Shown here piece after piece: positions 1,360 through 50,095 of a stretch of DNA of 64,000 nucleotides (position 1 is the first letter of the stretch; every line of letters starts with the position of its first letter). Both the position numbers and the translations under genes were made by a program. The notes below the pieces were generated by a model. It made no database searches and was not told the origin of the DNA. It saw only the letters and a list, made by a program, of their open reading frames with translations. Source of the stretch: Escherichia phage SmurfNell; the sequence record OR896824.1; one strand, given 5' to 3'.

Positions 1360-1553
1360 TATACGATTCCTTGCTTGAATCCTTCGATGATATTTTGGAG
1401 CAGAATTGCTTCTTCTGGGCGAACCTTCTCTTGCTTAATAAGCATATCCAAACCAGCAATACAGGTAGCTACTCCAGCATTATACCCAGCATTCCACTGC
1501 TCCATAAGCATATTTTCTAAATTACTTTTTAGATTCTGATTCAAGAAGTCCAT
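1359..1553 (-). CDS. hypothetical protein
   Basis: Internal Met of track ORF 1359..1637; its stop overlaps the SIR2-like start codon. Confidence 0.3.
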   Translation of the reverse strand: MDFLNQNLKSNLENMLMEQWNAGYNAGVATCIAGLDMLIKQEKVRPEEAILLQNIIEGFKQGIV

Positions 1554-1725
1554 AAAGTTTTTCCTCCAATTCCATAATACGATTTTCGTAAGAAGCACGC
1601 AGCTTCTCGATGGACAAAGCACGAACTGTAACTTCATCTGAATTGATCGCTAGCTGAGCTAGATCTTCTGTTTCCATACGTCCGTTGTAAATTAAGCGAT
1701 ATTTAAGATGTTTTACGTTTTTCAT
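1522..1725 (-). CDS. hypothetical protein
   Basis: 67 aa ORF downstream of the nrdD operon, charged and helical. Confidence 0.35.
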   Translation of the reverse strand: MKNVKHLKYRLIYNGRMETEDLAQLAINSDEVTVRALSIEKLRASYENRIMELEEKLYGLLESESKK

Positions 1726-1734
1726 TCTTGTTCC

Positions 1735-2016
1735 TTAGTTCTGTACTGTAAATTCATTCTTATCACAGTGAGCATAATAATATCCATACATACGATAAAT
1801 TTTCACAGCCTTAGTAGACCCCTTCGATTCTTCATAATCAATCCAGAGCCACTTGTCTTTACCTACATAATGTACCCGAAACTTCTTAACTTTCTTATCA
1901 TTCCATGTTGCAACAACACGACGATAATCAAATCCGCCCAACCAATCTAGAGCCTTACGTTCTTCACTAGGCTCTCCAAGATAGGAAACATCTACTTTCG
2001 GAAGCAATTCGCTCAT
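1735..2016 (-). CDS. hypothetical protein
   Basis: 93 aa ORF immediately downstream of nrdD on the same strand. Confidence 0.45.
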   Translation of the reverse strand: MSELLPKVDVSYLGEPSEERKALDWLGGFDYRRVVATWNDKKVKKFRVHYVGKDKWLWIDYEESKGSTKAVKIYRMYGYYYAHCDKNEFTVQN

Positions 2017-2114
2017 AGCTTTCTCCTCTCAAATTTATAAATCAATTATACATAAGTTTTAGCTCGAAAGCAAATAAAATAAAAGCCAGGTCGACTAGCA
2101 ACCTGGCTGATTCA

Positions 2115-3989
2115 TTATTTAGCGCGAATGTCCTGATGTTTCACTCGACCCATAACCTCATGTTGTTTACCTGGGTTAAATGGACGAGCACCTGGATTTC
2201 CGAGATATCCACAAACTCGACGAGTTACCTCAAGAGTCTCAGGATCATGGTTGCCACAAATTGGGCATTTGAAACCATCCTCAGAAGCTATAGTTTCACC
2301 CAAGAACCCACATTCCCCACAAGAGTCTACTGGAGTATTAATACCAAAGTAATGAACTTTACTTGCGGCATAGTTAATAACCCATTCCAGTGCATCTGGG
2401 AATCGTTTCATATCCGGCAATTCCACATAGGAAATGCATCCACCAGAAGCAATTGGAGTAAAGTTAGACTCATAATCGAACTTCACGTTTGGAGCAACCT
2501 TACGTTCTACATCAAGGTGATGGGAATTAGTGTAATATCCTTTAGCCAGAATATCTTCATGCTCTGGAAAATACTCACGGTCTAGGCGACAGAAGCGATC
2601 ACATAGAGATTCAGATGGTGTAGCATATAGACTATACCCTAATTGAGTCTCTTCCTTCTTCTGATCAGCACGATCACGCATGTATTGTAGCACACGTTGA
2701 ACGAACTTGACACAAGACTCAGACATTGTATCTACATCTTTACCAAACATGAACTGCAACATTTCGTGGCAGCCTATATATCCTAGAGATACAGAAGCAC
2801 GCTTGTAGAAATGATCAAACACATATTCATCTGGCCCCAGACGTAATCCAAAGGCTCCTGACATATAGAGGATGGGTGCAGCTTTAGCTTGGATGTATTT
2901 TAAGCGATCAACCCTCCACTCCAATGCTTTTAACGCGGTATCCACACGCAGCTCAAGTAGATCGAAGAATAGATCAATATTTCCTTCCGCTTCGATAGCG
3001 ATTCGAGGAAGGTTTACGGAAACAACACCTAAGTTATTACGGCCAGAAGTTTCACCATCTTCCGCAGCAGCTAGGAATGATCGACAGCCCATAGAGACTT
3101 TGTAGTCTCCCGTAACTTCTACAACCTTATCATAACTGATGTAGTCAGGATACATACGTTCAGCAGTACATTTCATAGCTAACTTCTTGATATCATAGTT
3201 AACATCACCAGGTTTCATATTTACGCCATCACGCAAAACAAATACCAGTTTAGGGAAGATAGCTGTACGTTTATTGATACCCAAACCATCCATACGCACT
3301 TCTAAGATTGCTTTCTGTACAAGACGTGCTTCCCAGGAAGTTCCTAGACCAAAACCAAAGGTAATAAATGGACTCTGACCATTAGAGTTGAACATCGTAT
3401 TGATTTCATACTCTAGACCTTGACAGGCATCGTAAACTTCTTTCTCAGTCATTTCCGTAGCCATTACAGATGCTTTGGCTTCATCCTTAGTCCAACGCTT
3501 TGCAAACGCATGATTCTTATCATAAGACTTACGAACATAAGGAGCCAGTACTTCATCTAATCGGTCTACAGAAGTACCACCATATTGATGGGAGCTAACC
3601 TGAGTAATAATCTGAGCTGTAATAGCAGCCGCAGTAGTAATGGAGTTTGGCGTACTGATTTCAGCATTACCAACCTTCATACCGTTTTTCAACATATCTT
3701 CCAAAGCAACCAGGCAACAGTTAGTCATACCTAACACAGCGTAATCAGCATCATGGAAGTGAATATCACCAATCATGTGAGCATTTCGAATCTGGATTGG
3801 CATTTCTTCCAGAATCAGATATTTACTCAATTCCCCTGCAAGCATGTCCCTTTGTGTAGGGAAACGTTCTGAGGGCTTATTGGCATTATTAAACAGCAGC
3901 TCTTCATCTGCTGACCCTTCGATAATCTCTTTGCAGTTTCTAATTAACGCCTGCATTTCTTTATACTTTAGTTCTTCATTGCGATTCAT
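2115..3989 (-). CDS. nrdD: anaerobic ribonucleoside-triphosphate reductase (class III RNR)
   Basis: 624 aa; C-terminal glycyl radical motif RVCGYLG preceded by a CGECGF...CPICG zinc ribbon. Confidence 0.85.
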   Translation of the reverse strand: MNRNEELKYKEMQALIRNCKEIIEGSADEELLFNNANKPSERFPTQRDMLAGELSKYLILEEMPIQIRNAHMIGDIHFHDADYAVLGMTNCCLVALEDMLKNGMKVGNAEISTPNSITTAAAITAQIITQVSSHQYGGTSVDRLDEVLAPYVRKSYDKNHAFAKRWTKDEAKASVMATEMTEKEVYDACQGLEYEINTMFNSNGQSPFITFGFGLGTSWEARLVQKAILEVRMDGLGINKRTAIFPKLVFVLRDGVNMKPGDVNYDIKKLAMKCTAERMYPDYISYDKVVEVTGDYKVSMGCRSFLAAAEDGETSGRNNLGVVSVNLPRIAIEAEGNIDLFFDLLELRVDTALKALEWRVDRLKYIQAKAAPILYMSGAFGLRLGPDEYVFDHFYKRASVSLGYIGCHEMLQFMFGKDVDTMSESCVKFVQRVLQYMRDRADQKKEETQLGYSLYATPSESLCDRFCRLDREYFPEHEDILAKGYYTNSHHLDVERKVAPNVKFDYESNFTPIASGGCISYVELPDMKRFPDALEWVINYAASKVHYFGINTPVDSCGECGFLGETIASEDGFKCPICGNHDPETLEVTRRVCGYLGNPGARPFNPGKQHEVMGRVKHQDIRAK

Positions 3990-4182
3990 TATACTCTCCT
4001 TCTCTAACTAAGACTACTATTATAACTCATTCGAGGGCGGATGTCAATATAATTTTTCTCTTAGACATTGTATTTTGATCTGTGCTAAGAAAATTGATCA
4101 GAATGTCAAAATTTTATTGACACCACCATAACTTTTGTATAAGATATACACATAACTTAAAAATTTTGACAAGGAAATAAAA

Positions 4183-4674
4183 ATGAATACTGAAATAACA
4201 CAAGACCTACTAAGAACCTACTTTGACTATAAAGATGGAGAATTGTTTTACAAACCAACCTATAAAACCCCTGCGGGAAGAATATCCAAAAAAGCAGGTA
4301 AATCTGCCAGACTAACTCCGTGTAACGGGTACTATCGTATAAATGTACCAAGAATAGGTGTACAGAAAGAACATAGGATGATTTTCCTATATCATGAAGG
4401 ATACCTACCAGAAGTAGTAGATCATATTGATAGGGATAAAGAAAATAATAGGATAGAGAACCTTAGGGCATCTAATCTTCAGGATAACGCTATTAATCGC
4501 TCCATAAGTAAGAGTAATACCTCTGGTATTGTGGGTGTACATTATGATGAATCATATGGTAAGTGGGTTGTAACGTATAGGGGTAAGTACTTTGGAAGAT
4601 TCGATACTAAAGAAGAAGCTGCCGAAGTTAATGCTAATGTTCGTGCCCTTGATCAAACCCGTATAAATAGTTGA
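4183..4674 (+). CDS. HNH homing endonuclease with AP2-like DNA-binding domain
   Basis: HRMIFLYHEGYLPEVVDHIDRDKENNRIENLR HNH motif; C-terminal GIVGVHYDESYGKWVVTYRGKYFGRF AP2-like repeat. Confidence 0.75.
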   Translation: MNTEITQDLLRTYFDYKDGELFYKPTYKTPAGRISKKAGKSARLTPCNGYYRINVPRIGVQKEHRMIFLYHEGYLPEVVDHIDRDKENNRIENLRASNLQDNAINRSISKSNTSGIVGVHYDESYGKWVVTYRGKYFGRFDTKEEAAEVNANVRALDQTRINS

Positions 4675-4757
4675 GTATCTAGTACCACACATCTCCCAAT
4701 AAAAGCAAGCAAATTTTTTATTTAAAAGCAATATCATAGGCTTATTTAAAATTGTAG

Positions 4758-4786
4758 TTGCTTTCTCCCGTATATATTGGTATAAT
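4758..4786 (+). promoter_or_regulatory. sigma70-type early promoter (TTGCTT-17-TATAAT)
   Basis: -35 TTGCTT and extended -10 TGGTATAAT with 17 bp spacer upstream of phoH. Confidence 0.6.
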
Positions 4787-4859
4787 ATATTTGTAAGTTG
4801 ATAAACAAGATCTTTTTGTTGATCCTCTGTTAGCGAAGTACACTATAGGAGTGTTATTT

Positions 4860-5612
4860 ATGGGAAAAGCACGTCAAAAAAGAGAGAACCGCAATGGTTC
4901 AAGAAAGCGTGGCAACAAGTACGAGAGCAACGTAATTCAAGCAGATTTCTCTGGTGATTACGCCAATCCAGTTGCTAAACCCCTAGTTGGTAAAAACCGT
5001 GAGCAAAAATCATATATCAATATGATCAAGAACAACACAGTGACTGTGGGTATTGGTGAACCAGGTACTGGTAAAACCTTTATTCCATCCGTTCTTGCAG
5101 CTCAGGAACTCGTAGACATTCACTCAGATATTGAGCAAGTGATCCTCGTGCGTCCGAACGAACCTCTAGGTAAATCTCTTGGTATGCTCCCAGGTGATCT
5201 GGCAGAAAAGCTAGAGCCTTGGTTAGAGCCAATAGCTGATGGCATGAAATGGGCAATCGGTGATCACGCCTACAAAGGATATGTCGAACGTCAGAAAATT
5301 AAATTCCTGGCTATCGAACATGCCCGTGGCCGAACTTTCAACAACTCCTATGTAATTGTCGATGAAGCTCAGAATATCTCCGTTGAAGCAATGATCTGTC
5401 TCCTGACTCGTGTAGGACAAGATTGTCGTTTAATTATCTGTGGGGATATAGCGCAGAAAGACATCAAGGGTGATTCAGGTCTAGCACTTCTTATGGAAGT
5501 CTATGAGAAGTATGAAAACTCTCCTTTCTCTATGATCGAACTGATCGACAACGTTCGCTCACCAGAGTCTAAAGCATTCTACGATATCTTTAAGGATATG
5601 GGGAAGGTGTAA
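4860..5612 (+). CDS. phoH: PhoH-like ATPase
   Basis: Walker A GIGEPGTGKTF; ATG at 4860 with AGGAG RBS (track start 4851 is GTG). Confidence 0.8.
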   Translation: MGKARQKRENRNGSRKRGNKYESNVIQADFSGDYANPVAKPLVGKNREQKSYINMIKNNTVTVGIGEPGTGKTFIPSVLAAQELVDIHSDIEQVILVRPNEPLGKSLGMLPGDLAEKLEPWLEPIADGMKWAIGDHAYKGYVERQKIKFLAIEHARGRTFNNSYVIVDEAQNISVEAMICLLTRVGQDCRLIICGDIAQKDIKGDSGLALLMEVYEKYENSPFSMIELIDNVRSPESKAFYDIFKDMGKV

Positions 5613-5613
5613 T

Positions 5614-5856
5614 ATGGGAAACGTCGTACATCTGCACCGCAAAACTAAGATCCACCGTACTTCACTGAGTGCTGCTAATATGATTACACGTAAGGAAGGG
5701 GAAGAAAGTCCTAAGACTACCCTAGCGTGGAAAATTGTAGCCTCTAATCCAAATCGGCCTTTTAATTATAATGAACTTTCAACATCAGTAGATATTCTTC
5801 TGAGGGCGAATGCGAAAGCAAAAGTAATTAATCAAGCCGAAAAACTAGACTGGTAA
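5614..5856 (+). CDS. hypothetical protein
   Basis: 80 aa ORF, start overlaps the phoH stop. Confidence 0.4.
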   Translation: MGNVVHLHRKTKIHRTSLSAANMITRKEGEESPKTTLAWKIVASNPNRPFNYNELSTSVDILLRANAKAKVINQAEKLDW

Positions 5857-5911
5857 TATAGAAGGCCTGGGTATGAAAATATCCGGGCTCTTTTTATCTG
5901 TAAAATTGTAC

Positions 5912-5940
5912 TTGCAAAATGACCCAAAACAAAGTAGAAT
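5912..5940 (+). promoter_or_regulatory. sigma70-type promoter (TTGCAA-17-TAGAAT)
   Basis: -35/-10 hexamers with 17 bp spacer upstream of nrdA; implies the real nrdA start is the ATG at 5979. Confidence 0.45.
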
Positions 5941-5978
5941 ATTTCCTAAATCCTGATAACTACAAAAAGGAAAGCCAA

Positions 5979-8309
5979 ATGAGCCATCGCATAGAAAAAG
6001 TAATTAAACGTGACGGTACTGTAGAAGACTTTGCTCCTGAAAAACTCAATGGTTGGGCAGTGTATGGCTGCAAAACAGTTGATGTAAGCTGGTCATCCAT
6101 CACTATGGCTGCTCAAAAAACTCTACCTAAAGGTGTTGTAGACTCCGACACCCTAATGGATGCGTTAATTAAAGCCGCTGAAGGTCTTATCAAAGATAAC
6201 CCAGCATATGACGTGCCGGCTAAGGAATTACGTCTTGCGCAGATGCGTAAACGTCTATATGATTCCTTCGAGCCTCCTTCTCTGCGTTTCTTCCACGATC
6301 ATATGGTTAGTGTTGGAGCTTGGGAAGACATGAGTGCATGGATTACTGATGAACAATTTGAAGCTCTGAATCAAGTTATCGACCATGATCGTGATCGTTT
6401 ATTCACCAGTGGTGGACTGAAACAGTTCTTCGACAAGTATTCCCGTCGTAATATTGCAACTGGTGAAATTTATGAAACTCCGCAGTTTGCCTACATGGGT
6501 ATGGCAATGGCGATGCTATCTCAACCTAACTGGACAATTCTAGATGCAATCGACCTCTACAATGCAATGTCGCTCCACAAAATCAACGTTCCTACGCCGC
6601 CACTGGTTGGCCTGCGCTCTAGTGACCGTGGATTTGCTAGTTGCTGCCTCGTGGATTCCACTGACACGCTGGATTCAATCGACACAGCCGAGCACATCGT
6701 CTTCAAAATGGTCGCAGCCAGAGCGGGAATCGGGTATCATCTTGAAAGCCGATCAATTGCTGATCCGGTGCGAAATGGGGCATTCCCGCATTCCGGAAAA
6801 CTGCCATATTATAGACACATTGACCGATCAGTAAAAGCTAACACTCAGCAAACCCGTGGTGGTTCTGCTACTGTGTCTTACCCATACTTCGATCCTGAAA
6901 TCATTCAGTTGATGCAGGTTAAACAGCAACGTGCTACAGACGAGAATAAAATCGATAAGATGGATTACTCTCTGAGCTTTAACAACCTTCTGTTAAAACG
7001 TTACCTGAAAAACGAAGATATTACGCTAATGTCCTACTTCTACGCACCAGAAGTTCATAAAGCGTTTTATGGTGAAGATGAGGCTAAGTTTGAAGAAATC
7101 TACGTGGCAGCGGAGAAACGTGTGGCATCTCTTACAAAGATCGACCACGAAGGAAAAACAATTCCAGCAGCTCCTAGAATCTCTGCAAAAGAAATCCTAG
7201 ATACTTGGTTACGTATCCGTATGGAAACAGGGCGTATGTATGCTCATCACATTGGTGAATCTAACCGTCATGGTAACTTCCTTGACCCGATTCGTATGAC
7301 CAACCTTTGTGTTGAAATTACTCAGCCAACCCGTCCATTCCATCACATTACGGAACTGTATAAGACCCAAGATCAGTTAGACGATATGCGTCCAGAAGAT
7401 ATTGGTGAAGTATCTTTGTGTAACTTAGGTGGTGTTGTACTAGGTCGCATGGAATCTCTAGCTGAATGGGAGAAAACTTGCTACATCCTTCTGAAATTCG
7501 TTGATACAATCATCGAGATTCAGGACTACCCATTCCCAACCATGGAATACACGGCTAAGAAACGTCGTAACGTTGGTATTGGTCTGATGAACGCGGCAGG
7601 TGCAATGGCAGCAGAAGGTTTGGCTTACGAAGGTGTTGAAGCCCGTAACTGGATTCACCGTGAAGCTGAAAAGCTGTCCTACTTCCTGCACAAAGCCTCT
7701 GTACGTCTGGCTAAAGAACAAGGTGCATGTGACTGGTTTAATCGTACTAAACCATCCAAAGGAACTCTGGTAATCGACACGTACAAGAAAACTGTTGATG
7801 AACTGGTAACTGTAGGTCTAGAAATGGATTGGGAATCTCTGCGTGCAGATATTCTGAAATATGGTATGCGCAACTCTGTTCTGACTGCTCAGATGCCGGG
7901 AGAAAGTTCCTCTGTACTGCTAGGTGTTACTAACTCTATCGAGCCGCCTCGTAAGATTGTATCTATCAAGGGTAGTGCAGTGAATAAAGTAATTGCAATT
8001 GCTCCAGGTGCAACCGATTGGGATACATTAATGAGTTATAAACTGGCTTATGATGTAGATCGTATCGAGTGGATCAAATGGGTAGCAACCATGCAGAAAT
8101 TCTTCAGTCAGTCTATCAGTACGAATATGTACTATGACTACACCAAGTTTGAGAATGAAATCATTCCTGGTCCAGTAGTAGTTCGTGATTTCATGACTGC
8201 TGTTAAGTACGGCTGGAAAACTTGGTACTACGCTAACTTCAACACTGAAAATGGTGGTGGAGCTGGTGAAGAAGCAGCAGGTTGTGCATCAGGTGGTTGT
8301 ACTATTTAA
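5979..8309 (+). CDS. nrdA: ribonucleoside-diphosphate reductase alpha subunit (class Ia)
   Basis: ATP-cone-like N-terminus VIKRDGTVEDF; active-site NLCVEI motif; start set at second ATG with AAAGGA RBS (track ORF begins 5919). Confidence 0.85.
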   Translation: MSHRIEKVIKRDGTVEDFAPEKLNGWAVYGCKTVDVSWSSITMAAQKTLPKGVVDSDTLMDALIKAAEGLIKDNPAYDVPAKELRLAQMRKRLYDSFEPPSLRFFHDHMVSVGAWEDMSAWITDEQFEALNQVIDHDRDRLFTSGGLKQFFDKYSRRNIATGEIYETPQFAYMGMAMAMLSQPNWTILDAIDLYNAMSLHKINVPTPPLVGLRSSDRGFASCCLVDSTDTLDSIDTAEHIVFKMVAARAGIGYHLESRSIADPVRNGAFPHSGKLPYYRHIDRSVKANTQQTRGGSATVSYPYFDPEIIQLMQVKQQRATDENKIDKMDYSLSFNNLLLKRYLKNEDITLMSYFYAPEVHKAFYGEDEAKFEEIYVAAEKRVASLTKIDHEGKTIPAAPRISAKEILDTWLRIRMETGRMYAHHIGESNRHGNFLDPIRMTNLCVEITQPTRPFHHITELYKTQDQLDDMRPEDIGEVSLCNLGGVVLGRMESLAEWEKTCYILLKFVDTIIEIQDYPFPTMEYTAKKRRNVGIGLMNAAGAMAAEGLAYEGVEARNWIHREAEKLSYFLHKASVRLAKEQGACDWFNRTKPSKGTLVIDTYKKTVDELVTVGLEMDWESLRADILKYGMRNSVLTAQMPGESSSVLLGVTNSIEPPRKIVSIKGSAVNKVIAIAPGATDWDTLMSYKLAYDVDRIEWIKWVATMQKFFSQSISTNMYYDYTKFENEIIPGPVVVRDFMTAVKYGWKTWYYANFNTENGGGAGEEAAGCASGGCTI

Positions 8310-8317
8310 TAAAAACA

Positions 8318-8345
8318 AGGAGATCTTCGGGTCTCCTTTTTCTTT
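8318..8345 (+). terminator. rho-independent terminator
   Basis: 8 bp stem AGGAGATC/GGTCTCCT with TTCG loop followed by a T-run. Confidence 0.6.
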
Positions 8346-8355
8346 GAAATTTTAC

Positions 8356-8385
8356 TTGCTAATCGCTACCAGATTTGCTATAATA
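8356..8385 (+). promoter_or_regulatory. sigma70-type promoter ending 5 nt before the HNH start codon
   Basis: TTGCTA-18-TATAAT; ATG at 8391 lies 5 nt downstream of the -10, implying a leaderless transcript. Confidence 0.45.
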
Positions 8386-8390
8386 TCTAT

Positions 8391-8888
8391 ATGAAATTAA
8401 CACAGAGTAGATTAAAAGAGCTAATCTCCTATGACCCTGAAACTGGCGAATTTACCTGGCTCCCAAGAAAAACTTTAGCAAAGCATTTATGGAACGCTAA
8501 AGCAGGAACCTATGATAAATTAGGGTATCTTCGTATAAAAGTTGAAGGAGTTCAATATTTAGCTCATCGCCTAGCCTTCTTGTATATGACTGGAGAAATA
8601 CCAGAAGGAAAAATTGACCATAAAGATACTAATCCGTCTAATTGCGCCTGGGATAATCTCCGTGAAGCCACGAGTTCTCAAAATTCTATGAACTCGTGTG
8701 CAAGATCGGATAACCAGCTTGGAATGAAAAATATTCGTGTAAAAGGCACTTCATTTCAGGTTAGGATAGGCAAAGACGGCAAATCTTATACAAAAACTTT
8801 TAAAACCCTAGAAGAAGCTATAGAATGGAGAGACACCAAACTACTAGAACTTCATGGGGACTTTGCAAACAACGGAGAAGCTAAATGA
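8391..8888 (+). CDS. HNH homing endonuclease (free-standing, between nrdA and nrdB)
   Basis: EGKIDHKDTNPSNCAWDNLREAT HNH motif; C-terminal AP2-like repeat; stop overlaps the nrdB start. Confidence 0.75.
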   Translation: MKLTQSRLKELISYDPETGEFTWLPRKTLAKHLWNAKAGTYDKLGYLRIKVEGVQYLAHRLAFLYMTGEIPEGKIDHKDTNPSNCAWDNLREATSSQNSMNSCARSDNQLGMKNIRVKGTSFQVRIGKDGKSYTKTFKTLEEAIEWRDTKLLELHGDFANNGEAK

Positions 8889-10030
8889 CTACTTTACTTA
8901 ACTTAGAATGGGAACATACTAACGCTGATCTTTTCCTCGGTGATTCTTTGGGTATCGCAGATTATGTGCGTGTGGCACACCCCGAACTAGAGCGATTAGC
9001 TCTGTTGCAGCGTTCCCAGTTCTGGACTGAAACTGAAATTAGTCTTGAAGCTGATAAAAAGCAGTGGGGTAATCTCCCGCGTGATATTCAGGAAATTACT
9101 CTCCTGAACTTAGCATGGCAAACCCAAACAGATTCTTTCATTAGTCGTGCTCCTGAAGCAGCTATTATGCCACTTGTAAGCCGTCCTGAACTGGAAGGTA
9201 TGCTCAAGCAGTGGAGCTACTTCGAAGATCTGCACAGCCGTGCGTATAGTAATATTATTCGTAACGTTCTGACTGATCCAGCAGAATTTATTGATTCTGT
9301 AACTAAAAACCAAGAAGCATTTGCACGTATCGCAGATTCTGTTGAACTGTTTGATGAATTGTATCTGTTAGGTCAGTATTTCCTTGCAGTACGTGATCAT
9401 CGTGGTGATAATACTTATCCAGAAACTGAGTTCCCTGAAGTTAAACGTGAAACTCAGGCTAAGCTGTTAGATGCTTACTTTGCAATCTACGGTCTGGAAG
9501 CAATGCAGTTCTACGCATCCTTTGCATGTACCTTTGCTCTAGCAGAGAACGATATTCTGCAAGGTATTGCCAAGAACCTGCAACTAATTGCTAAAGATGA
9601 AGCTCTGCACACTCAAATGTCTAAAGCTATCATCCAGATTATGTTTCAGCAATTTGATAAAGATCTGGTAGATGAAGCATTAGCTAAAGCACCAGCACAA
9701 CTCCTAAAAACTCTGAAAACTGAGATTGAATGGGGTCACTTTATCTTTAAAGGCCGTAGTCTGATTGGTTTGAACGCAGAACTGCTTGAAGAATATCTTT
9801 ACTTTGTAGGACGTAACGCATTTATGCACATTGGTGTAGAATGGCCAAGCCACTTACCTGTAATTACTAAGAACCCTATTCCGTGGATTATGAACTGGTT
9901 GGATACTACATCTTTACAACCTGCTCCGCAAGAGATTCAGATTGGTGCAGCATATCGTGTAGGTCAGGTAACTGAAACCTCTGCTGATACTCTGAAAGAT
10001 CTTGGCAACGAATTTGAGGGTATGTTCTAA
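8885..10030 (+). CDS. nrdB: ribonucleoside-diphosphate reductase beta subunit
   Basis: 381 aa, size and position typical of NrdB directly downstream of nrdA. Confidence 0.75.
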   Translation: MTTLLNLEWEHTNADLFLGDSLGIADYVRVAHPELERLALLQRSQFWTETEISLEADKKQWGNLPRDIQEITLLNLAWQTQTDSFISRAPEAAIMPLVSRPELEGMLKQWSYFEDLHSRAYSNIIRNVLTDPAEFIDSVTKNQEAFARIADSVELFDELYLLGQYFLAVRDHRGDNTYPETEFPEVKRETQAKLLDAYFAIYGLEAMQFYASFACTFALAENDILQGIAKNLQLIAKDEALHTQMSKAIIQIMFQQFDKDLVDEALAKAPAQLLKTLKTEIEWGHFIFKGRSLIGLNAELLEEYLYFVGRNAFMHIGVEWPSHLPVITKNPIPWIMNWLDTTSLQPAPQEIQIGAAYRVGQVTETSADTLKDLGNEFEGMF

Positions 10031-10560
10031 TGATAGCAGCAATCTATGCAACTGGGCCGAATGGGGAGTTCGGCCTCAATGGTAAACTCCCTTGGGGTTC
10101 TTTCAAAGAAGAACTAGATATCTTCTATGCTACTTTGGATTCTCTAGCACCTGACAATATTATTGTAGGAGCAGGAACTTGGTTAGCATTCCCTGAGACT
10201 CTGCAAAAAAGAATACTAGGAGATTCTGACCTATTTATTTATGCAAATAGACCACTACCTAACTCTGTAGGATCAGCCACACGCATAAGTAACATTGGAT
10301 ACAGTCTACCTGATTTCCTCAAGGAAGAAGTAACTGTAGTATTAGGGGGAGCAACTCTGCTTCTTGAAATGTATGTCAAAAATCATCTAGATATGGCGTA
10401 TATCTCTACTATTACTTCAGCTACACCATTATCTGCTGATGTACATCTGCATCATCACATTACTTTAACTAATTCAATGGCAACTAGAATGGACTATGTG
10501 GCAGGACAGAATGCAGATAAAACGCTTTCATTCTTACAAGAATTGGTGATATTTAAATGA
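10030..10560 (+). CDS. dihydrofolate reductase
   Basis: N-terminal [22 protein letters not shown] matches the DHFR signature; start overlaps nrdB stop. Confidence 0.75.
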
Positions 10561-11411
10561 AGCAATATATTGAAACTGGAAAACGTATTCTTGAAGAGGG
10601 TGTATGGGTAACGAATCCTAGAACAGGGGTTCGTTGCCTAACCATTATTGATGCAGACTTTACCTTTAACGTAGGAGCAGGAGAACTGCCGCTAGTAACT
10701 ACTCGTAAAGCATTTGCTAAACAAGCAATAATGGAAATGATCGGATATCTCCGTGGGTACGACTCAGCAGCACAATTCCGCGCTATTGGTGTTAATACAT
10801 GGAATGCTAATGCAAATGAAAATATTGCCTGGCTAGGTAATCCATTCCGTAAAGGCGAGGATGATATGGGACGAGTCTATGGTGTTCAAGGACGTCATTG
10901 GACTAATTCTGATGGTATGGTATTTGATCAGTTAGCCAAAGTCTATCATAATTTGAAAAGAGGGATTGACGATCGTGGAGAAATTTTAACTTTTTGGAAC
11001 CCTGGGGAATTTCGTAGAGGATGCCTACGTCCGTGTATGCATACCCATCAATTCTCTATTTTAGGTGATACACTATACCTAAACTCTTTCCAGAGGTCTA
11101 ATGATTTCTTGCTGGGCCAAGTATTTAATATGGTGCAATGCTATGCACTTCTAGCTATTATGGCACAGATTACAGGTCTTAAGCCAGGTATTGCTCGTCA
11201 AAAGATTATTAATCTTCATATCTATGAAGATCAGTATAATGTTCTGATGGAGCACAAGCAATTCGATCGTGAACCTTTTGCACCTCCTACTTTAGAAATC
11301 AATCCAAATATTAGAACTTTGGATGATGTATTAACGTGGGTAAGTAAGGATGATTTTACTGTTCGTGGCTATGAACACCATCCTGCTATTGCATACCCAT
11401 TCACAGTCTAA
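10557..11411 (+). CDS. thyA: thymidylate synthase
   Basis: 284 aa; RPCMHTHQF active-site Cys region and RSNDF...GQVFN motif; translationally coupled to the DHFR gene. Confidence 0.7.
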
Positions 11412-16761: not shown

Positions 16762-17211
16762 ATGAAGGCAGCTTTGCTTCTAATAGCTGCCCTAACCTAT
16801 AGCTTCAATAGTCATGCTACCTACGACTCAAAGCAGATTGATTGCATTGCAAAAAATATCTACTTCGAAGCACGAGGTGATGGCACAAAGGGAATGATTG
16901 CAGTTGCACAGGTTACTAAAAACCGTGTAAACTCCGGTAAATTCCCTGATTCTTACTGTAAAGTAGTATATCAGTCTAACCAATTCAGCTGGACAGCTAA
17001 AAAACCTAGGGTTGATAAAACAGATGAGACTTGGCAAGTTGCTAAGAACTTAGCTAGAGTGATATACTACGTTGATTTACCACAAGATCCAACACAGGGG
17101 GCGTTATACTTCCATAGCGGTAAAGATAAACCGTACTGGACAAAGAAGTTTAAGAAAACAACGAAGATTCAAGGCCATACGTTCTACAAGCCTGTGGTTA
17201 AGAAAACTTAA
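16762..17211 (+). CDS. secreted cell wall hydrolase (SleB-like)
   Basis: Signal peptide MKAALLLIAALTYSFNSHA; IAKNIYFEARGD...AVAQVTKNRV...QFSW pattern of the cell wall hydrolase family; ATG at 16762. Confidence 0.55.
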   Translation: MKAALLLIAALTYSFNSHATYDSKQIDCIAKNIYFEARGDGTKGMIAVAQVTKNRVNSGKFPDSYCKVVYQSNQFSWTAKKPRVDKTDETWQVAKNLARVIYYVDLPQDPTQGALYFHSGKDKPYWTKKFKKTTKIQGHTFYKPVVKKT

Positions 17212-17936: not shown

Positions 17937-18789
17937 ATAAATTAGAGAACAGCGAGCCGATTACGCTGAGTGAGTTTAGTGATTCCTACTAGGATAGCTA
18001 CTCCACTGAATAGAGTCGGTGAGTTGGAGACTAGTAAGTACTCTGAGAGAGGCTACGAGCTAACGCTTATTGCTATTGATAGGGAACTGAAAATCTGCGG
18101 AAAACTCGGGAGCTGTCCCGAAATCTCGTAAACTCTTCTCTAGTTTATGTTAGTGGGGTGTCGAACTGACTTATGTGATAACACTGCCGTCCTAGTATAA
18201 ACGGTAATATCAAACCGTAACTGGTGGAAGATGCAGGTTCGAATCCTGCGGTCGGAAAGAATCAGATAACTCGGGCTTATACCGGATAAGCATTCGCTGC
18301 TGTAGTACATACTATGACGGTTCAGGAGGTACGCCTCCTGATCAGTATTAGGTTAGAATCGAAACAGCTAAACCACGAGGAAACCTGACGGCCTCAACCA
18401 AACTCGGAACTCGGGATCACTGCCTAGTGTGTACCCCGTTTAACCTGAGACTAGGCATCCAGCTTCGCATCGAAAATCGGAGGTGCGATTCTAACAGACC
18501 GCGTGAATATGAGAGTGGGAAACGCTGACATGAGAGATGTCACTAATGGTGCCCAATAGTACAGGTAATTCGCGATAATTCCTGTTGAGCGGCAGCAGTA
18601 GGCTGGGAGTCATGACCTAAGCCTAACCGAGTTCTTCACATACGGAGAACATAACCACAAAGTCACCCTGACTTAAACTGGAAGATATTGTCTGACGGAA
18701 GGGCTGCAGAGCTTAATCTGAGGGGGCTGACCCTACCTACCGTCGGGTATCTTTAAGAGCTTTTATAAGAGTTCTTAAAAATACCTAAA
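17937..18789 (+). ncRNA. promoter-driven structured non-coding region (candidate RNA gene or tRNA precursor leader)
   Basis: No ORF of 60 aa or more on either strand; many GC-rich hairpins; tRNA-like T-arm GCAGGTTCGAATCCTGC at 18233-18249 without a matching acceptor stem. Confidence 0.3.
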
Positions 18790-21375: not shown

Positions 21376-22053
21376 ATGACTAACTATCTTGTAAATGACT
21401 TTAAAAACTGGAAACCTTTGGAATATCTGTGGCTGTTTATAGCAGTCGCCTTTATTAGTTTAGCAAACTATAATGGTACAGCTCTAGATTGGGCTACTGC
21501 AATAACCAATGTGGTTTGTGTTATTCTGGTTGCAAAAGGACGTGTTTCCAACTATATTTGGGGCTTAGTGGGTGTTCTTACATATGGTATTACAGCTTTA
21601 AACGCAGATCTTTATGGTAACGCTGCACTAAACCTGCTATACTACGTTCCTATGCAGTTTTATGGAATGTACTTATGGCATAAAAATAAGCCAAGTAATC
21701 TGCCAGATGTTCCAACTAAGTTTCTGACTAAAGCCCAAGCTCTGCTGACTCTAGGGATTCTAGCAGTAGCCACGTTAGGGTATGGTAGTTTCTTAGCTAC
21801 TACAGCTGATCCATTCCCAATGCTCGATGCATTTACTGCGGTTGGTAGTGTGATCGCTATGTGGCTTATGGTTAAGCAGTATGCCGAGCAGTGGCTGATC
21901 TGGATTGCTATTAACATTGGTACTGTGTACATTTGGCTTGTAACTGCTCAATCTACAGGTGCATCTTATGCAATCCTAGCAATGTGGCTAGTATTCTTAG
22001 GTAACTCTATTATGGGAGCCTATAAAGGATACTTTGTACGCGTTAACAAATAA
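21376..22053 (+). CDS. pnuC: nicotinamide riboside transporter PnuC-like
   Basis: About 225 aa polytopic membrane protein rich in Trp/Tyr, translationally coupled to the NadR-like gene. Confidence 0.55.
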   Translation: MTNYLVNDFKNWKPLEYLWLFIAVAFISLANYNGTALDWATAITNVVCVILVAKGRVSNYIWGLVGVLTYGITALNADLYGNAALNLLYYVPMQFYGMYLWHKNKPSNLPDVPTKFLTKAQALLTLGILAVATLGYGSFLATTADPFPMLDAFTAVGSVIAMWLMVKQYAEQWLIWIAINIGTVYIWLVTAQSTGASYAILAMWLVFLGNSIMGAYKGYFVRVNK

Positions 22054-26302: not shown

Positions 26303-26550
26303 AATTTAGGTTTCTGCTTCCTAGAGAACTGACGCCTAGATAAACAAGGCGATGAGTTTCCGGCCGGTTCTAGTCGCTGAAAATCCTCCCGACCAGGTAG
26401 GTGTAAGTAAACGAAAGTTTACTTATTAAGTAAGTCCGACACATCGGCGGGTGTGTTCTAGTACTTAAAGAAGGTCTCGCAAACTTTCTCGCTAGCATGA
26501 GTTGATAGCTCGGTGACTTACCTAATAAGTAAATTTATTAAAAAATGTAG

Positions 26551-29151: not shown

Positions 29152-29466
29152 AATCTTGAAGTATGCCGGAATCGGTAGACGGGGCTTCCTAAAGGGCGTA
29201 AGAGGAACATCCACTCCTCATAAGATACCCGAAAACGAGGCTGAGATAAATGGTCTATCTCGTGAAGGTTCAAGTCCTTCTGCTTCTTGATATTCAATGG
29301 CTCAAAGAGTAACGGTGCACCTTTCTAGAGAATTTTCTGGGCGAGAATCCAGAAGTAATCAACTAGTTGTTAGTGTGATGAGTTTCGGAGAGCCGCCACA
29401 ATTGAAGTCTTTAGAATGGGTATCGCCCTTTAGCCCCTCCGAAAGGGATAACTAGAGATTTCAATT

Positions 29467-29543
29467 GTGGCTATATCATAATTGGTTAATGATCCTGATT
29501 GTGAATCAGGCCTATGTGGATTCGAATTCCACTAGCCACCCCA
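29467..29543 (+). tRNA. tRNA-His (anticodon GUG)
   Basis: Acceptor GTGGCTA/TAGCCAC, anticodon arm CCTGA-TTGTGAA-TCAGG, C73, CCA. Confidence 0.75.
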
Positions 29544-47306: not shown

Positions 47307-47917
47307 TGTTTACACAACAAACCATTAAAGTAGTTGCAGATCATGAACTCGACACATGGGATTACAGCTTTAAAGATCTGACTGCTACAGTACAGTTTAA
47401 ATCTATGCAACTGTCGTTTTTGCACATTGATCTTCAGGCTTGCAAAGAGTTTCAGGCTAAGCTCATGAATGCTCGTAAGATCTTTGGCACGGCTCGCATC
47501 CCGGCTGATAATCTGATTAATGCACTAATCGATGCTGGATACAAACTCGTGAAGACTGAGGTGAACCGCCCGAGTACTCCAGTAACTATTCGAGATCCGT
47601 GGCAGTCAGGGCCAATCGCAATGCTGAATAATTCTGATAAAAGATTAATGTCGGATTTGCACAATGTTCCGTGTGGTGGCGTGGTAAGTAATACGCAATC
47701 ATATAAGTTTGGGGAAGCATCTAGTGTAGACGAGTGGAATAAAGCTGGAGTTGCAATGATGAGTTTCGCAAAGGATCGCGGAGCACAGGAAGACTCCGGA
47801 GTTTCTAGGAATTCGTACACAATTCGTTTAAGCAATCCTAGCAAAGAAGGTGAGCTTGAAGAAATGTTAACGAAAGTATTCGAAGCTATTGATGCAGATA
47901 AGGCTAGAGGTCGTTAA
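47306..47917 (+). CDS. hypothetical protein
   Basis: 203 aa ORF. Confidence 0.5.
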   Translation: MFTQQTIKVVADHELDTWDYSFKDLTATVQFKSMQLSFLHIDLQACKEFQAKLMNARKIFGTARIPADNLINALIDAGYKLVKTEVNRPSTPVTIRDPWQSGPIAMLNNSDKRLMSDLHNVPCGGVVSNTQSYKFGEASSVDEWNKAGVAMMSFAKDRGAQEDSGVSRNSYTIRLSNPSKEGELEEMLTKVFEAIDADKARGR

Positions 47918-48648
47918 TGAAAGATTTGGCAGTAAAATTTAAGAATATTCTAGCCCTCGCTAAGGGGGCTGATCATCGCTGTTTCTCTGATCTAACCGCT
48001 GGGGAGAAACATGCAGTAATGTTTGTTTGTGAGATGTTCCCTGCTAGATGGGAAGGTGGTAAGATTAAGTATGATAACAAAGCTGCAAAAGCTGACCTTG
48101 CTTACTCTTACGTTGATATGAATAAACTTCTCAAGTCTTTAGACCCAACTGCTAAAGGCCACATGGGAAACTATATTCACGTTATTATTGATGAACCTCT
48201 CCCAGCTTATAGAGAAACATCCGCTAGAGAAGCATTAGAAGCATATCCAGAACAATTATACATTCCACCTAAGAAATGTAAGTTCGATCATCTTCCAACA
48301 TTAGCATTTGAAACTAGCATCACATTTGAAGATATTTATAGAACGATTGGAGCTGTAGTAGCACGGATTGCAGTGGCACATTATCGTGATATAGAACTTA
48401 CTACAGCGGAAGATTATATTCTATATGCTATTCATGATGAAAAGGATTCTTTCAAACGTTTAATGGATGCCCTAGGATTAGGTAGTCTCACTGCGCTTGT
48501 GCTTAACCAGGCTCCTAGAACCAAGCGTTATGCAAAAGGATCTATTACTCTCGAAGAAACAGGATCTACATCTTCATTCCTTGCTACATATATTTATCTA
48601 GCATCTAAAGGAATCTATCTAAAGGCTAGAAAGAATGTCACTATATAA
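47917..48648 (+). CDS. hypothetical protein
   Basis: 243 aa ORF. Confidence 0.5.
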   Translation: MKDLAVKFKNILALAKGADHRCFSDLTAGEKHAVMFVCEMFPARWEGGKIKYDNKAAKADLAYSYVDMNKLLKSLDPTAKGHMGNYIHVIIDEPLPAYRETSAREALEAYPEQLYIPPKKCKFDHLPTLAFETSITFEDIYRTIGAVVARIAVAHYRDIELTTAEDYILYAIHDEKDSFKRLMDALGLGSLTALVLNQAPRTKRYAKGSITLEETGSTSSFLATYIYLASKGIYLKARKNVTI

Positions 48649-48991
48649 AGTATATATTCTTGCAAATAGGGATCTGACGAAGATCCCTAAGAGAACAAAG
48701 ATCGGTATTAGTATGAATCCACATAATAGGATTCAAACACTAAACTTAGATAAGATAGTTTATCGAGGTTTTGACGATCTATATGTGTATGGAATCTATG
48801 AAACCCACAATCCTAGAGATCTAGAAGCCGCTGCACATATCTACTTTAAGAAATACCGCTGTAACTTAAAAGGATTCGAAGGATGCACAGAGTTCTTTGA
48901 TATTCACCCACAACTTGCAGAACGATTCCTATTAAATACAGGAGCCAAGAAGATTTACGAACCCAATATCAATCTCGAAGAGGATGTATAA
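48635..48991 (+). CDS. GIY-YIG-related (T5orf172-type) domain protein
   Basis: N-terminal YKVYILAN...KIGISMNPHNR resembles the GIY-YIG-like T5orf172 signature. Confidence 0.35.
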   Translation: MSLYKVYILANRDLTKIPKRTKIGISMNPHNRIQTLNLDKIVYRGFDDLYVYGIYETHNPRDLEAAAHIYFKKYRCNLKGFEGCTEFFDIHPQLAERFLLNTGAKKIYEPNINLEEDV

Positions 48992-49008
48992 ACGTTAACA
49001 AAATCTTC

Positions 49009-49038
49009 TTGACAACTCATTGTGGCACATGTTATAAT
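49009..49038 (+). promoter_or_regulatory. sigma70-type promoter (TTGACA-18-TATAAT) facing the repeat region
   Basis: Perfect hexamers; no ORF follows. Confidence 0.5.
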
Positions 49039-49078
49039 AATCTCATAGATTAAAAACAACTCTTGTTTTGAACTCTAG

Positions 49079-49190
49079 GGGCGATGATTATTACACTTAG
49101 TATTACGTCTATACGTTGCGACAGCACGAGTATAGATCTAATTACTAAGTCTTCCGTAATACTCACGCGCCCCACGGGTAAGCTCTCATG
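49079..49190 (+). other. large imperfect hairpin, candidate small RNA or processing/terminator structure
   Basis: Nested inverted repeats GGGGCG...AGTATTACG / CGTAATACT...CGCCCC and CTATAC/GTATAG, followed by T-rich tract. Confidence 0.3.
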
Positions 49191-49316
49191 AAATGGGGGC
49201 TACTTTACTTTTTATTTATATGAATATATTTAAAGGCAATATTAACGTTCAAGATGATACACCTGTTGCCGCTCATCTGCTAGGATGGCTCAACACTTTC
49301 TTCTAGACTCCTAAGT

Positions 49317-49420
49317 TTCTAGGAAAACTCTCGCCAACTCAGGCGGTTTTCATGTTCCTAGAAACTCCAGCAATAGGTGGTTTAATACAGGGCGGTTATA
49401 GGGAGGGCGGTTATTTCTAG
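49317..49420. repeat. short direct repeats (GGCGGTT-type and TTCTAGRAA-type)
   Basis: GGCGGTT at about 49333, 49390 and 49405; TTCTAGGA/TTCTAGAA at about 49317, 49356, 49415 and 49477. Confidence 0.45.
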
Positions 49421-49456
49421 GAGACATTTTTTGAAAACACATTTCTGGAAATTACT

Positions 49457-50059
49457 GTCGGATTTGCACACTGTGTTTCTAGAAATTTATGGTCGGATTT
49501 GCACATTGATAGGAGTCTCCAAAGTTTTTAGGAACACTGAAAATAGCAGCATTATTTCGGGCCGAAGGCCCATGTTTGCCTGAGTTTTTTAGAGTCCCAG
49601 GAATTTTCACTTGTCAAGCTATTTTGCCCCATTTTGCTAATAAAATTTCGCAGAATCTCCACTTATCTCAATTCTATCCAAAACATCCCACATTATCCCC
49701 AAAAACGCAGCAAACCGGTGCTGAAGCACCACTACAGCTGCACCCTCCATAGTTCCTCCCAAAAACCTCGTCGGATTCGCACTTCTCCCCAAACCCACAC
49801 AATCACACACCCTCTCATCGAAGTCACAAAAATATTCCTGAAACCATAAATCTGTCTCCTAGCAAACTCATGTCGTATTTGCACATATACGGCTGGATTT
49901 GTGCGCAGCACGAGTCTGCCCGAGTTTTTAGGAAAATTCATTGTCGGATTCGCACACTATAAAAATATTTGCCATCGGATTTGCACACTACCAAAAATTG
50001 TCGGATTCGCACATACACGCTGGCACGTAATCCGTGGGGGCAAATGTCGGATTTGCACA
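49457..50059 (+). repeat. iteron-like array: nine direct copies of 14 bp motif GTCGGATT(T/C)GCACA
   Basis: Copies near 49457, 49492, 49770, 49872, 49893 (degenerate), 49943, 49974, 50000 and 50046, all in the same orientation. Confidence 0.7.
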
Positions 50060-50095
50060 AAAGCGCAGGGCAAATAGAAAATGCCCTGCCTGCCG

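What the first reader, a model, noticed from the sequence alone, without database searches (positions are those of the whole stretch)
49009..49230. Consensus promoter followed by a 110 nt nested hairpin and T-run: candidate small RNA at the edge of the repeat region
A perfect TTGACA-18-TATAAT promoter is followed by no ORF but by a large imperfect stem-loop (49079-49190) with an inner hairpin and a T-rich tail, an arrangement expected for a small structured RNA or an attenuator.
Basis: seen in the sequence. Interest (0 to 1): 0.45.

Follow-up and report, generated by a model that had tools for sequence, protein, structure and literature searches.

The report
Conserved hairpin RNA of T5-like phages
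Just outside the terminal repeat of this T5-like phage, a near-perfect bacterial promoter is followed by a ~100-base hairpin, and every T5 relative examined keeps the same unit with a rewritten but still pairing stem, so it is most likely an undescribed small non-coding RNA gene of unknown function.

Summary
TTGACA-18-TG-n-TATAAT lies at 49009-49038. It is followed by a 7-bp hairpin (49053-49069), a 96-nt unbranched hairpin (49078-49173) and a G-run hairpin with a U-rich tail (49181-49220). The long hairpin is the most stable 110-nt stretch on either strand of the 64-kb window (z about -6.5).

The window is a T5-like phage. The unit sits between the last early gene and the inner end of the left terminal repeat, about 0.4 kb from the repeat boundary. 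It corresponds to about 10,645-10,879 on the minus strand of T5, where nothing is annotated.

Promoter, leader and hairpin architecture recur in Tequintavirus, Epseptimavirus, Sugarlandvirus and Pantoea phage AAS21. The hairpin sequence occurs in at least 13 mutually unalignable versions, and all fold into one long hairpin (z -3.6 to -8.8). Closely related versions show compensatory and G·U-preserving changes.

There is no Rfam or tRNA match, no conserved ORF, no antisense target and no paper describing it. I conclude it is an undescribed phage small-RNA family.

Three points stay open. The terminator is not conserved across the family. The strand (G·U) test is weak. Function is unknown, and expression is untested.

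The parts
49009..49038 (+). Sigma-70 promoter of the extended -10 class: TTGACA (49009-49014), 18-nt spacer with TG at 49030-49031, TATAAT (49033-49038). The predicted start site is A at 49045.
   Evidence: It scores 12/12. There are 2 such sites in the window against 0.18 expected. The -35, TG and -10 are kept while the spacer varies in all T5-like loci fetched, including Klebsiella and Pantoea phages. The start site is inferred from spacing only.
49038..49052 (.). Perfect palindrome TAATCT-cat-AGATTA spanning the -10 end and the predicted start site. It could be an operator, or a conserved initial transcribed sequence.
   Evidence: It is invariant from Klebsiella to Salmonella phages. In T5 it reads TAACTC-tat-GAGTTA, with both arms changed and the symmetry kept. 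Related sites are not significantly enriched elsewhere in the window. Function is inferred.
49053..49069 (+). P1: small hairpin with 7 bp and a 3-nt loop (AAAACAA-CUC-UUGUUUU).
   Evidence: Three P1 pairs show changes on both sides with pairing kept within the A family. Other versions form a hairpin here from different sequence.
49078..49173 (+). P2: 96-nt unbranched imperfect hairpin with 37 pairs. The base is GGGGCG/CGCCCC. A conserved GATTAT sits at 49086-49091. A 3'-side bulge CTTCC sits at 49151-49155. The apical loop is GACA at 49120-49123.
   Evidence: -39.1 kcal/mol, z -6.5. It is the top-ranked window of 12,778. Thirteen sequence-unrelated versions all form one long hairpin. Compensatory and G·U-compatible substitutions occur within versions.
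49181..49201 (+). P3: 9-bp hairpin AGCUCUCAU-GAA-AUGGGGGCU that contains the family-wide G-run.
   Evidence: Flagged as terminator-like. The GGGG(G) run is invariant in the alignment. The pairing around it is not conserved: it has A·G mismatches in version A3 and the G-run lies in a loop in T5 and version C.
49202..49220 (+). U-rich tail (ACUUUACUUUUUAUUUAUA). It is the probable 3' end of the RNA in this phage, giving an RNA of about 49045-49215, roughly 170 nt.
   Evidence: A terminator by the same criteria is found only in versions A1, A4 and B1 among 14 representatives. The 3' end is inferred, not shown.

Best explanation
This is a gene for a small, highly structured non-coding RNA, about 170 nt here and 155-200 nt in relatives. 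All T5-like phages examined carry one copy, in the unique DNA just inside the left terminal repeat.

Host sigma-70 RNA polymerase would transcribe it from a consensus extended -10 promoter once the second-step-transfer DNA enters the cell. The RNA consists of a short 5' hairpin, one long rod-like hairpin and a G-run element.

Selection keeps three things: the promoter, the rod shape, and a few short motifs. The motifs are GAUUAU near the base of the 5' arm, a pyrimidine-rich bulge (CUYACG-like) on the 3' arm, and the 3' G-run. The rest of the stem is free to be rewritten.

The mechanism I think most likely is a stable RNA that works by being bound by a phage or host protein at those motifs, as a scaffold or decoy, rather than by base-pairing to a target.

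Shown: the sequence features, their conservation and covariation, and the absence from known families. Inferred: transcription, the RNA ends, stability, and the protein-binding mode of action.
For: Promoter:
- It is perfect here.
- Its -35, TG and -10 are conserved while the spacer varies.
- It stays at a fixed distance from P1 and P2 in Tequintavirus, Epseptimavirus, Sugarlandvirus and Pantoea phage AAS21.

Distribution:
- The window version hits 315 phage records and the T5 version hits 200, almost always one place per record.

Structure:
- Thirteen P2 versions that cannot be aligned with one another each fold into a single unbranched hairpin, z -3.6 to -8.8.
- The window's P2 is the most stable 110-nt segment of the window.

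Substitution pattern within versions:
- T5 version: 3 pairs changed on both sides and kept, 1 changed to U·G, 1 broken, and the rest in loops.
- Versions A1 and A3: three one-sided changes in P2, all U-A to U·G on the + strand.
- Version B1: variation in P2 falls on six unpaired positions, including the whole apical loop, against one paired position.
- P1 has three compensatory pairs.
- The four one-sided U·G changes would be A·C mismatches on the minus strand.

Other points:
- The + strand folds better than the minus strand in 9 of 13 versions.
- No conserved ORF.
- No antisense target in the window and no similarity in 5,426 E. coli genomes. This argues against base-pairing as the mode of action.
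Against: - No expression data were found or could be generated.
- A terminator by the scan's criteria follows the hairpin in only 4 of 14 representatives, so a discrete RNA is not guaranteed family-wide.
- G·U pairs are rare in P2 (30 of about 530 pairs). The minus strand has a similar number in its own fold (35), and in 4 of 13 versions it folds as well or better. An arm-to-arm count gives only G·U 33 against A·C 16, from non-independent sequences.
- The conserved motifs I list were read off alignments of few lineages and are not universal. T5 has GAGTTG instead of GATTAT.
- P2 length varies from 93 to 149 nt, which is awkward for a fixed-geometry scaffold.
- No partner protein is identified. 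The adjacent hypervariable protein p243 tracks the hairpin versions. However, it has no recognisable fold, it is replaced by an unrelated protein in T5, and the whole neighbourhood is mosaic.
Confidence: 0.45

Rival explanations
1. The element acts in cis on a transcript that reads on toward the terminal repeat. The promoter fires toward the repeat boundary 0.4 kb away. The structured 5' domain and G-run would act on the polymerase or on the template. Possible modes are processive antitermination or attenuation of antisense transcription into the pre-early region, or formation of an R-loop at the G-run and AT-rich tract that primes DNA synthesis or marks the packaging site.
For: - The terminator is not conserved.
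- The invariant G-run is followed in all versions by a very AT-rich tract and then, in Markadamsvirinae, by a ~65-nt non-coding box conserved better than the RNA itself.
- No ORF is conserved downstream.
- The unit always lies 0.4-0.6 kb from the annotated repeat boundary: T5 at 10219, Sepoy at 10295, and also Stitch, SPC35 and Kenya-K18.
- The promoter points at that boundary.
Against: - In this window and in versions A4 and B1, a 7-12-bp stem plus U-tract follows directly.
- No alternative terminator/antiterminator pairing was identified.
- No co-oriented gene needs the read-through.
- According to Davison's preprint, replication origins of T5 were mapped near the genome centre.
- All mechanistic steps are conjecture.
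Confidence: 0.2
2. The feature is at the DNA level. The conserved property would be an imperfect inverted repeat (a cruciform or a single-strand hairpin) used in replication, nicking or terminase action next to the terminal repeat. The promoter would be regulatory or incidental.
For: - P2 is almost purely Watson-Crick, with about 6% G·U.
- It folds nearly as well on the minus strand in several versions.
- It sits in a region dense with DNA repeats and palindromes described as the injection-stop / repeat region 3.
- A DNA palindrome overlaps the start site.
Against: - The promoter is the best conserved part and keeps a fixed distance to the hairpin.
- The four one-sided stem substitutions that keep pairing give G·U on the + strand only.
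- The + strand is more stable in 9 of 13 versions.
- Conserved bulges and loops are asymmetric, with extra bases always on the 3' arm.
- Terminase and replication proteins are conserved in these phages, whereas the repeat's sequence is not.
Confidence: 0.15
3. The element is a terminator and insulator. The hairpins would end the leftward early operon, protect its mRNA 3' ends, and keep early transcription out of the terminal repeat. The RNA made from the promoter would be a by-product.
For: The unit lies exactly where the early genes (+ strand here) converge with the pre-early genes (- strand). P3 plus the U-tract is terminator-like.
Against: - A dedicated consensus promoter is conserved between the operon's stop codon and the hairpin in every lineage.
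- A 93-149-nt rod far exceeds what termination needs.
- The U-tract is the least conserved part.
- The large hairpin P2 is not followed by a U-run.
Confidence: 0.1
4. The short ORFs overlapping the hairpin encode a small protein. Here these are 49084-49191 on the + strand and 49050-49175 on the - strand. Several GenBank records annotate such ORFs as hypothetical proteins.
For: The ORFs exist. Sepoy, JLBYU40, VSe12, EPS7, PMBT31 and SB13 carry such annotations.
Against: Across the hairpin versions the overlapping ORFs change strand, frame, length and sequence, or disappear. Substitutions follow base-pairing, not codons.
Confidence: 0.02

Closest known systems
phi29-family packaging RNA (pRNA)
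   Same: Both are phage-encoded RNAs of 120-174 nt made from a strong early host-type promoter close to a genome end. In both, secondary structure is conserved among relatives while sequence diverges (established knowledge).
   Different: pRNA has a three-way junction and interlocking loops, and it is a proven part of the packaging motor. Here P2 is unbranched. The Rfam library gave no hit; I recall that it contains a pRNA model. Nothing links this RNA to packaging except its position near the repeat boundary.
Bacterial rod-shaped RNAs: 6S RNA and 4.5S/SRP RNA
   Same: These are single long imperfect hairpins of 110-185 nt that act by binding a protein (RNA polymerase or Ffh) at a few conserved internal loops, with variable helices between them.
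   Different: There is no large central bubble as in 6S, no domain IV motif, and no Rfam match at E up to 10. No similarity to any E. coli genome was found.
HK022 put RNA and other promoter-proximal cis-acting leader RNAs
   Same: These are structured RNAs immediately downstream of a strong phage promoter. The structure matters more than the sequence.
   Different: put consists of two short stem-loops that act on operons of downstream genes. Here there is one 93-149-nt rod and no downstream co-oriented gene.
R-loop primer origins (ColE1 RNA II, T4 oriF/oriG) and the T7 promoters flanking the terminal repeat (phiOL/phiOR with the concatemer junction)
   Same: Each has a promoter, a structured or G-rich RNA segment and an AT-rich tract. 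In T7, conserved promoters abut the terminal repeat and transcription is implicated in concatemer processing (established knowledge, recalled).
   Different: There is no evidence here for hybrid formation, priming or a role in processing. T5 uses host polymerase. The resemblance is positional only.
Stable small RNAs of T4 and T5 encoded in the tRNA clusters
   Same: These are phage-encoded, abundant, non-coding RNAs of unknown function (recalled from the older literature).
   Different: Those lie within the tRNA region, which here is 18.8-31.1 kb. This unit is 18 kb away at the terminal-repeat border and is not tRNA-like.

Membership tests
Any described RNA family (Rfam 15, 4227 models) | Covariance-model score at or above the family's gathering threshold | tested here: not met
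   The whole window at gathering threshold gave only tRNAs. The 48900-49700 stretch at E up to 10 gave only sub-threshold noise. Ten loci carrying other hairpin versions at E up to 1 gave nothing on the element.
tRNA / tmRNA / tRNA-like | Cloverleaf or tmRNA architecture detectable by ARAGORN or the Rfam tRNA model | tested here: not met
   Thirty tRNAs were found at 18.8-31.1 kb and none at 49 kb.
Sigma-70 promoter, extended -10 class | -35 TTGACA, -10 TATAAT, 16-18 nt spacing, TG one base upstream of the -10 | tested here: met
   12/12 plus TG. Rare in the window. Conserved in relatives.
Sigma-70 promoter, extended -10 class | Initiates transcription in vivo | not testable with these tools
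   No RNA data are available. No paper found mentions this promoter.
Intrinsic (rho-independent) terminator | G+C-rich stem directly followed by a U-tract, conserved among relatives | tested here: inconclusive
   Met in this window: 9-bp stem with 4 G-C pairs, then ACUUUACUUUUU. By the same rule it is present in 4 of 14 representative versions.
Transcription attenuator / riboswitch-type leader | A co-oriented gene downstream whose expression depends on read-through | tested here: not met
   No conserved + strand ORF lies downstream. The repeat region and opposite-strand pre-early genes follow.
phi29-type pRNA | Three-way junction with two interlocking loops, and a match to the pRNA model | tested here: not met
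   P2 is a single unbranched hairpin in all 13 versions. No Rfam hit.
phi29-type pRNA | Required for DNA packaging | not testable with these tools
   This needs genetics or in vitro packaging assays.
6S RNA | Large central bubble mimicking an open promoter, between a closing stem and a terminal stem | tested here: not met
   Internal loops and bulges in the window's P2 are no longer than 5 nt. No Rfam hit.
Base-pairing (antisense) small RNA | Extended complementarity to a target in the phage or host genome | tested here: not met
   The best match in the 64-kb window is 12 nt, E 0.5. There is no match in the E. coli genome collection for either the window or the T5 version. The rest of the phage genome and Salmonella genomes were not searched.
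Structured functional RNA (generic) | Secondary structure conserved through compensatory change | tested here: met
   P1 has 3 compensatory pairs. P2 has 13 unalignable versions that all form one rod, z -3.6 to -8.8. Within versions there are 3 double changes kept, 4 changes to G·U, 2 broken pairs, and most variation in loops. No formal R-scape-type test was run.

The most novel reading that the evidence does not exclude
The RNA, or the act of making it, is part of how T5-like phages process their 10-kb terminal repeat. A conserved host-polymerase promoter fires from unique DNA toward the repeat boundary 0.4 kb away. The invariant G-run followed by an AT-rich tract would nucleate an R-loop, or a stalled complex, that primes repeat duplication or marks the terminase cut site. 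The rod-like 5' domain would serve as a handle for a phage protein. That would make an RNA-dependent step in end formation of a classical long-terminal-repeat phage.
Probability: 0.08. Interest if true: 0.85.

Novelty: new member of a known kind. Interest (0 to 1): 0.6.

Why it matters
T5 is one of the founding model phages, and T5-like phages are widely used for Salmonella and E. coli biocontrol. Even so, the 0.7 kb between the left terminal repeat and the first early gene carries no annotated feature in the T5 reference record.

A promoter-driven structured RNA kept by every member of the group, while its stem sequence is repeatedly rewritten, is likely to have a core role. It is also cheap to test: a Northern blot, a deletion, and compensatory stem mutants.

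Its position makes it a candidate player in several unsolved T5 problems. It is the first promoter to enter at second-step transfer, it points at the repeat boundary, and it adjoins the injection-stop and repeat region. The open problems are the pre-early to early switch, protection of second-step DNA, and formation of the long terminal repeats.

At minimum it defines a new RNA family that should be annotated. It should replace the spurious 'hypothetical protein' ORFs now called across it.

Tried and rejected
1. Known RNA families and tRNA-like genes: no match.
2. Antisense target: blastn-short of the RNA against the rest of the window gave only chance-level matches. Neither the window nor the T5 version matches any complete E. 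coli genome.
3. A terminal 5'/3' helix (AUAGAU with AUCUAU after the G-run): it looked attractive in Klebsiella phages. It is no better than shuffles in 14 of 15 versions, so I rejected it.
4. A regulon for the start-site palindrome: related sites are not significantly enriched in the window.
5. The neighbouring protein p243 as the RNA's partner:
   - Its sequence classes track the hairpin versions.
   - It has no Pfam family and its PHROG is of unknown function.
   - T5 has an unrelated protein in that place, and the whole neighbourhood is mosaic.
   - I kept this as a lead only.
6. Strand test for RNA against DNA: G·U counts and plus/minus folding energies are only weakly asymmetric, so it is not decisive.
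7. Cross-version covariation on one alignment: MAFFT cannot align the apical regions. Even with the apex cut out, the helix registers differ between versions. I therefore relied on per-version folding statistics and within-version substitutions, and built no covariance model.
8. Wider sampling: IMG/VR and metagenome pattern scans added few new versions. The genome-collection scan with a 17-mer returned only chance AT-rich matches in unrelated bacteria.
9. Literature: six full-text searches and six papers read mention no RNA, promoter or hairpin at this position. Gentz & Bujard 1985 is not held.
10. Another very stable window at 21801-21910 turned out not to be unusual, z -1.2.

Full report
WHAT THE WINDOW IS. 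The window carries 30 tRNA genes at 18.8-31.1 kb. It is 95% identical over the locus to Salmonella phages Sds2, Sepoy and S113, and it matches 466 T5-like phage records. It is therefore a T5-like phage (Demerecviridae, Markadamsvirinae), read in the orientation opposite to the standard T5 map.

The finding lies between the last early gene on this strand and the inner end of the left terminal repeat. That last gene is a GIY-YIG/T5orf172 homing endonuclease at 48635-48991. By homology to Sepoy (PhageTerm repeat 1-10295) and T5 (repeat to 10219), the repeat boundary falls near window position 49595, about 0.4 kb downstream of the element.

In the T5 reference record, nothing is annotated between 10219 and 10936. 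The T5 counterpart of the element occupies about 10,645-10,879 on the minus strand. Davison's analysis of the repeat region stops at 10409.

THE OBSERVATION. The promoter is exactly as described: TTGACA at 49009-49014, an 18-nt spacer, and TATAAT at 49033-49038. It also has a TG one base upstream of the -10, which places it in the extended -10 class. Only two perfect TTGACA-N16-18-TATAAT sites exist in the 64 kb on both strands, against 0.18 expected. From the spacing, the start site should be the A at 49045.

- P1 (49053-49069), 7 bp.
- P2 (49078-49173), a 96-nt unbranched imperfect hairpin.
- P3 (49181-49201), followed by a U-rich tail.

The 181-nt region folds at -58 kcal/mol (z -6.7), and P2 alone has z -6.5. 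In a sliding 110-nt fold of both strands, the P2 window is the most stable of 12,778 windows: -44.1 against a mean of -21.0 and sd of 5.8. Another high-ranking window at 21801-21910 has a z of only -1.2 when tested. This is not chance.

CONSERVATION. The promoter and the first ~35 transcribed bases are conserved in every T5-like locus fetched. These include Tequintavirus, Epseptimavirus, the Klebsiella Sugarlandvirus phages and Pantoea phage AAS21. In AAS21 the promoter is TTGACG-17-TAAGAT.

BLAST with the window's 241 nt finds 315 records. In many of them only the first ~90 nt and the last part align. T5's own version finds 200 records. Matches are almost always one per record, so the element is outside the repeat and single-copy.

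The centre of the element, P2, exists in at least 13 versions that cannot be aligned with each other. I call them A1-A4, B1, B2, C, D, E1-E3, T5 and F, and they range from 93 to 149 nt. Each folds into one unbranched hairpin with z between -3.6 and -8.8.

A few short features recur:
- A palindrome over the start site: TAATCT-cat-AGATTA. In T5 it is TAACTC-tat-GAGTTA, with both arms changed.
- (A/G)GATTAT near the 5' base of P2.
- Extra, often CUYACG-like, bases bulged on the 3' arm.
- A GGGG(G) run after P2.

IS THE STRUCTURE SELECTED, AND ON WHICH MOLECULE? Closely related members of one version give the cleanest test.
- T5 version, compared with two ~91% identical phages. P2 shows three pairs changed on both sides and still paired (U-A to C-G, A-U to U-A, A-U to G-C). 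One pair changes from U-A to U·G and one is broken. The remaining differences are at unpaired positions.
- Versions A1 and A3. The three one-sided changes in P2 are all U-A to U·G.
- Version B1, 11 distinct sequences. Variable positions in P2 are six unpaired ones, including all four bases of the apical loop, against one paired position.
- P1 has three compensatory pairs within the A family.

The four changes to U·G would be A·C mismatches in a minus-strand or cruciform hairpin. The + strand folds better than the minus strand in 9 of 13 versions. Both points favour an RNA read from the + strand.

The asymmetry is weak, however. G·U pairs make up only about 6% of P2 pairs, and the minus strand's own fold has as many. 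An arm-to-arm comparison gives G·U 33 against A·C 16 from non-independent sequences. I therefore treat 'RNA, + strand' as the better-supported reading, not a settled one. The strongest argument for RNA remains the conserved promoter at a fixed distance.

WHAT IT IS NOT.
- No Rfam family matches the window or ten loci with other versions.
- It is not a tRNA or tmRNA.
- ORFs overlapping the hairpin are annotated as hypothetical proteins in several records. They differ in strand, frame and sequence between versions.
- No antisense target exists in the window, and there is no similarity in the E. coli genome collection.
- It is not an attenuator of a downstream gene, because none exists on this strand.
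- A 5'/3' closing helix was tested and rejected.

THE 3' END. In this window P3 plus the U-tract is a reasonable terminator, giving an RNA of about 170 nt. By the same criteria, only 4 of 14 representative versions have one. The pairing around the G-run also differs between versions.

Downstream lie an AT-rich tract and a ~65-nt non-coding box that is nearly invariant in Markadamsvirinae (49245-49310). The ORF the box sits in here has no start codon in T5. After it come the GGGCGGTTAT and TCGGATTTGCAC repeats of the injection-stop / repeat region. Transcription may therefore continue toward the repeat boundary in many lineages. This keeps a cis-acting role alive, whether antitermination, antisense control of the pre-early genes, or R-loop formation near the packaging cut.

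SURROUNDINGS. The upstream protein p243 (47917-48645, PHROG 8993, function unknown) is unusually variable, at 98% down to 22% identity. Its classes map one-to-one onto the hairpin versions. The next gene upstream does not track them.

That could mean co-evolution or merely co-inheritance. A confident model of p243 has no structural neighbour, and T5 carries an unrelated protein there. The homing endonuclease is inserted between p243 and the promoter in only some phages.

HOW IT MOST LIKELY WORKS. I commit to a discrete, promoter-driven, rod-shaped non-coding RNA. It would act by being bound by a phage or host protein at a few conserved motifs, with the rest of the stem free to drift or diversify (confidence 0.45).

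Rivals:
- A cis-acting or read-through element directed at the terminal repeat (0.2).
- A DNA-level inverted repeat (0.15).
- A terminator/insulator for the early operon (0.1).
- A small ORF (0.02).

Conservation and structure are shown. Transcription, RNA ends and mode of action are inferred.

COMPARISON AND NOVELTY. In form it resembles phi29 pRNA and the bacterial rod RNAs (6S, 4.5S). In position it recalls promoter-proximal leader RNAs and the promoters flanking the T7 terminal repeat. It fails the defining features of each family that could be tested (see the membership table).

Six full-text searches and the T5 papers read mention nothing at this locus. It is best filed as a new family within a known kind, phage-encoded small structured RNAs. 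It is of above-average interest because it is universal in a classical model phage group, hypervariable yet structurally constant, and placed at the border of the terminal repeat.

Noticed in passing
window 49245-49310: A ~65-nt non-coding box (TTCAAGATGATACACCTGTTGCCGCTCATCTGCTAGGATGGCTCAACACTTTCTTCTAGA) is almost invariant across Markadamsvirinae, including T5, while both flanks vary. The 37-aa ORF it sits in here (49193-49306) has no start codon in T5, so its conservation is not explained by coding.
   Followed up: partly
window 49390-50060; repeat boundary near 49595: Same-strand short repeats occur here: GGGCGGTTAT twice (49390, 49405), and TCGGATTTGCAC at 49458, 49493, 49975 and 50047 (plus 47651). 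They straddle the inferred inner end of the terminal repeat. They belong to the injection-stop / repeat region 3 described for T5, and could equally be terminase or initiator binding sites.
   Followed up: partly
window 48635-48991 (+): A GIY-YIG / T5orf172-type homing endonuclease gene lies between the hypervariable gene p243 and the RNA promoter. It is present in only some relatives (Sepoy, JLBYU40, HMD-P2, K7PH164C4) and absent in others (T5, S133, Stitch). This suggests a free-standing homing element next to a conserved RNA gene.
   Followed up: partly
[not shown]
   Followed up: yes
window 4019-4047 (-): This is the only other perfect consensus promoter in the window: TTGACA-17-TATAAT, also preceded by a T-G. 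I did not examine what it drives.
   Followed up: no
window 18186-18257 (+): The Rfam tRNA model scores 29.3 bits here, just at its threshold of 29, but ARAGORN does not call a tRNA. It may be a degenerate or unusual tRNA-like gene at the edge of the tRNA cluster.
   Followed up: no
window 49319-49433 (+) and L068 652-765: The PhrS covariance model gives sub-threshold hits (15 and 21 bits against a gathering score of 37) at the same homologous stretch of the repeat region in two phages. This is probably chance similarity carried by conserved sequence.
   Followed up: no
window 26415-26536, 16960-17073, 29395-29471 (+): Well-paired inverted repeats (20-24-nt arms, 83-91% complementary, 37-78 nt apart) lie inside or near the tRNA cluster. 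They may correspond to the additional stable small RNAs reported for T5 in the older literature.
   Followed up: no
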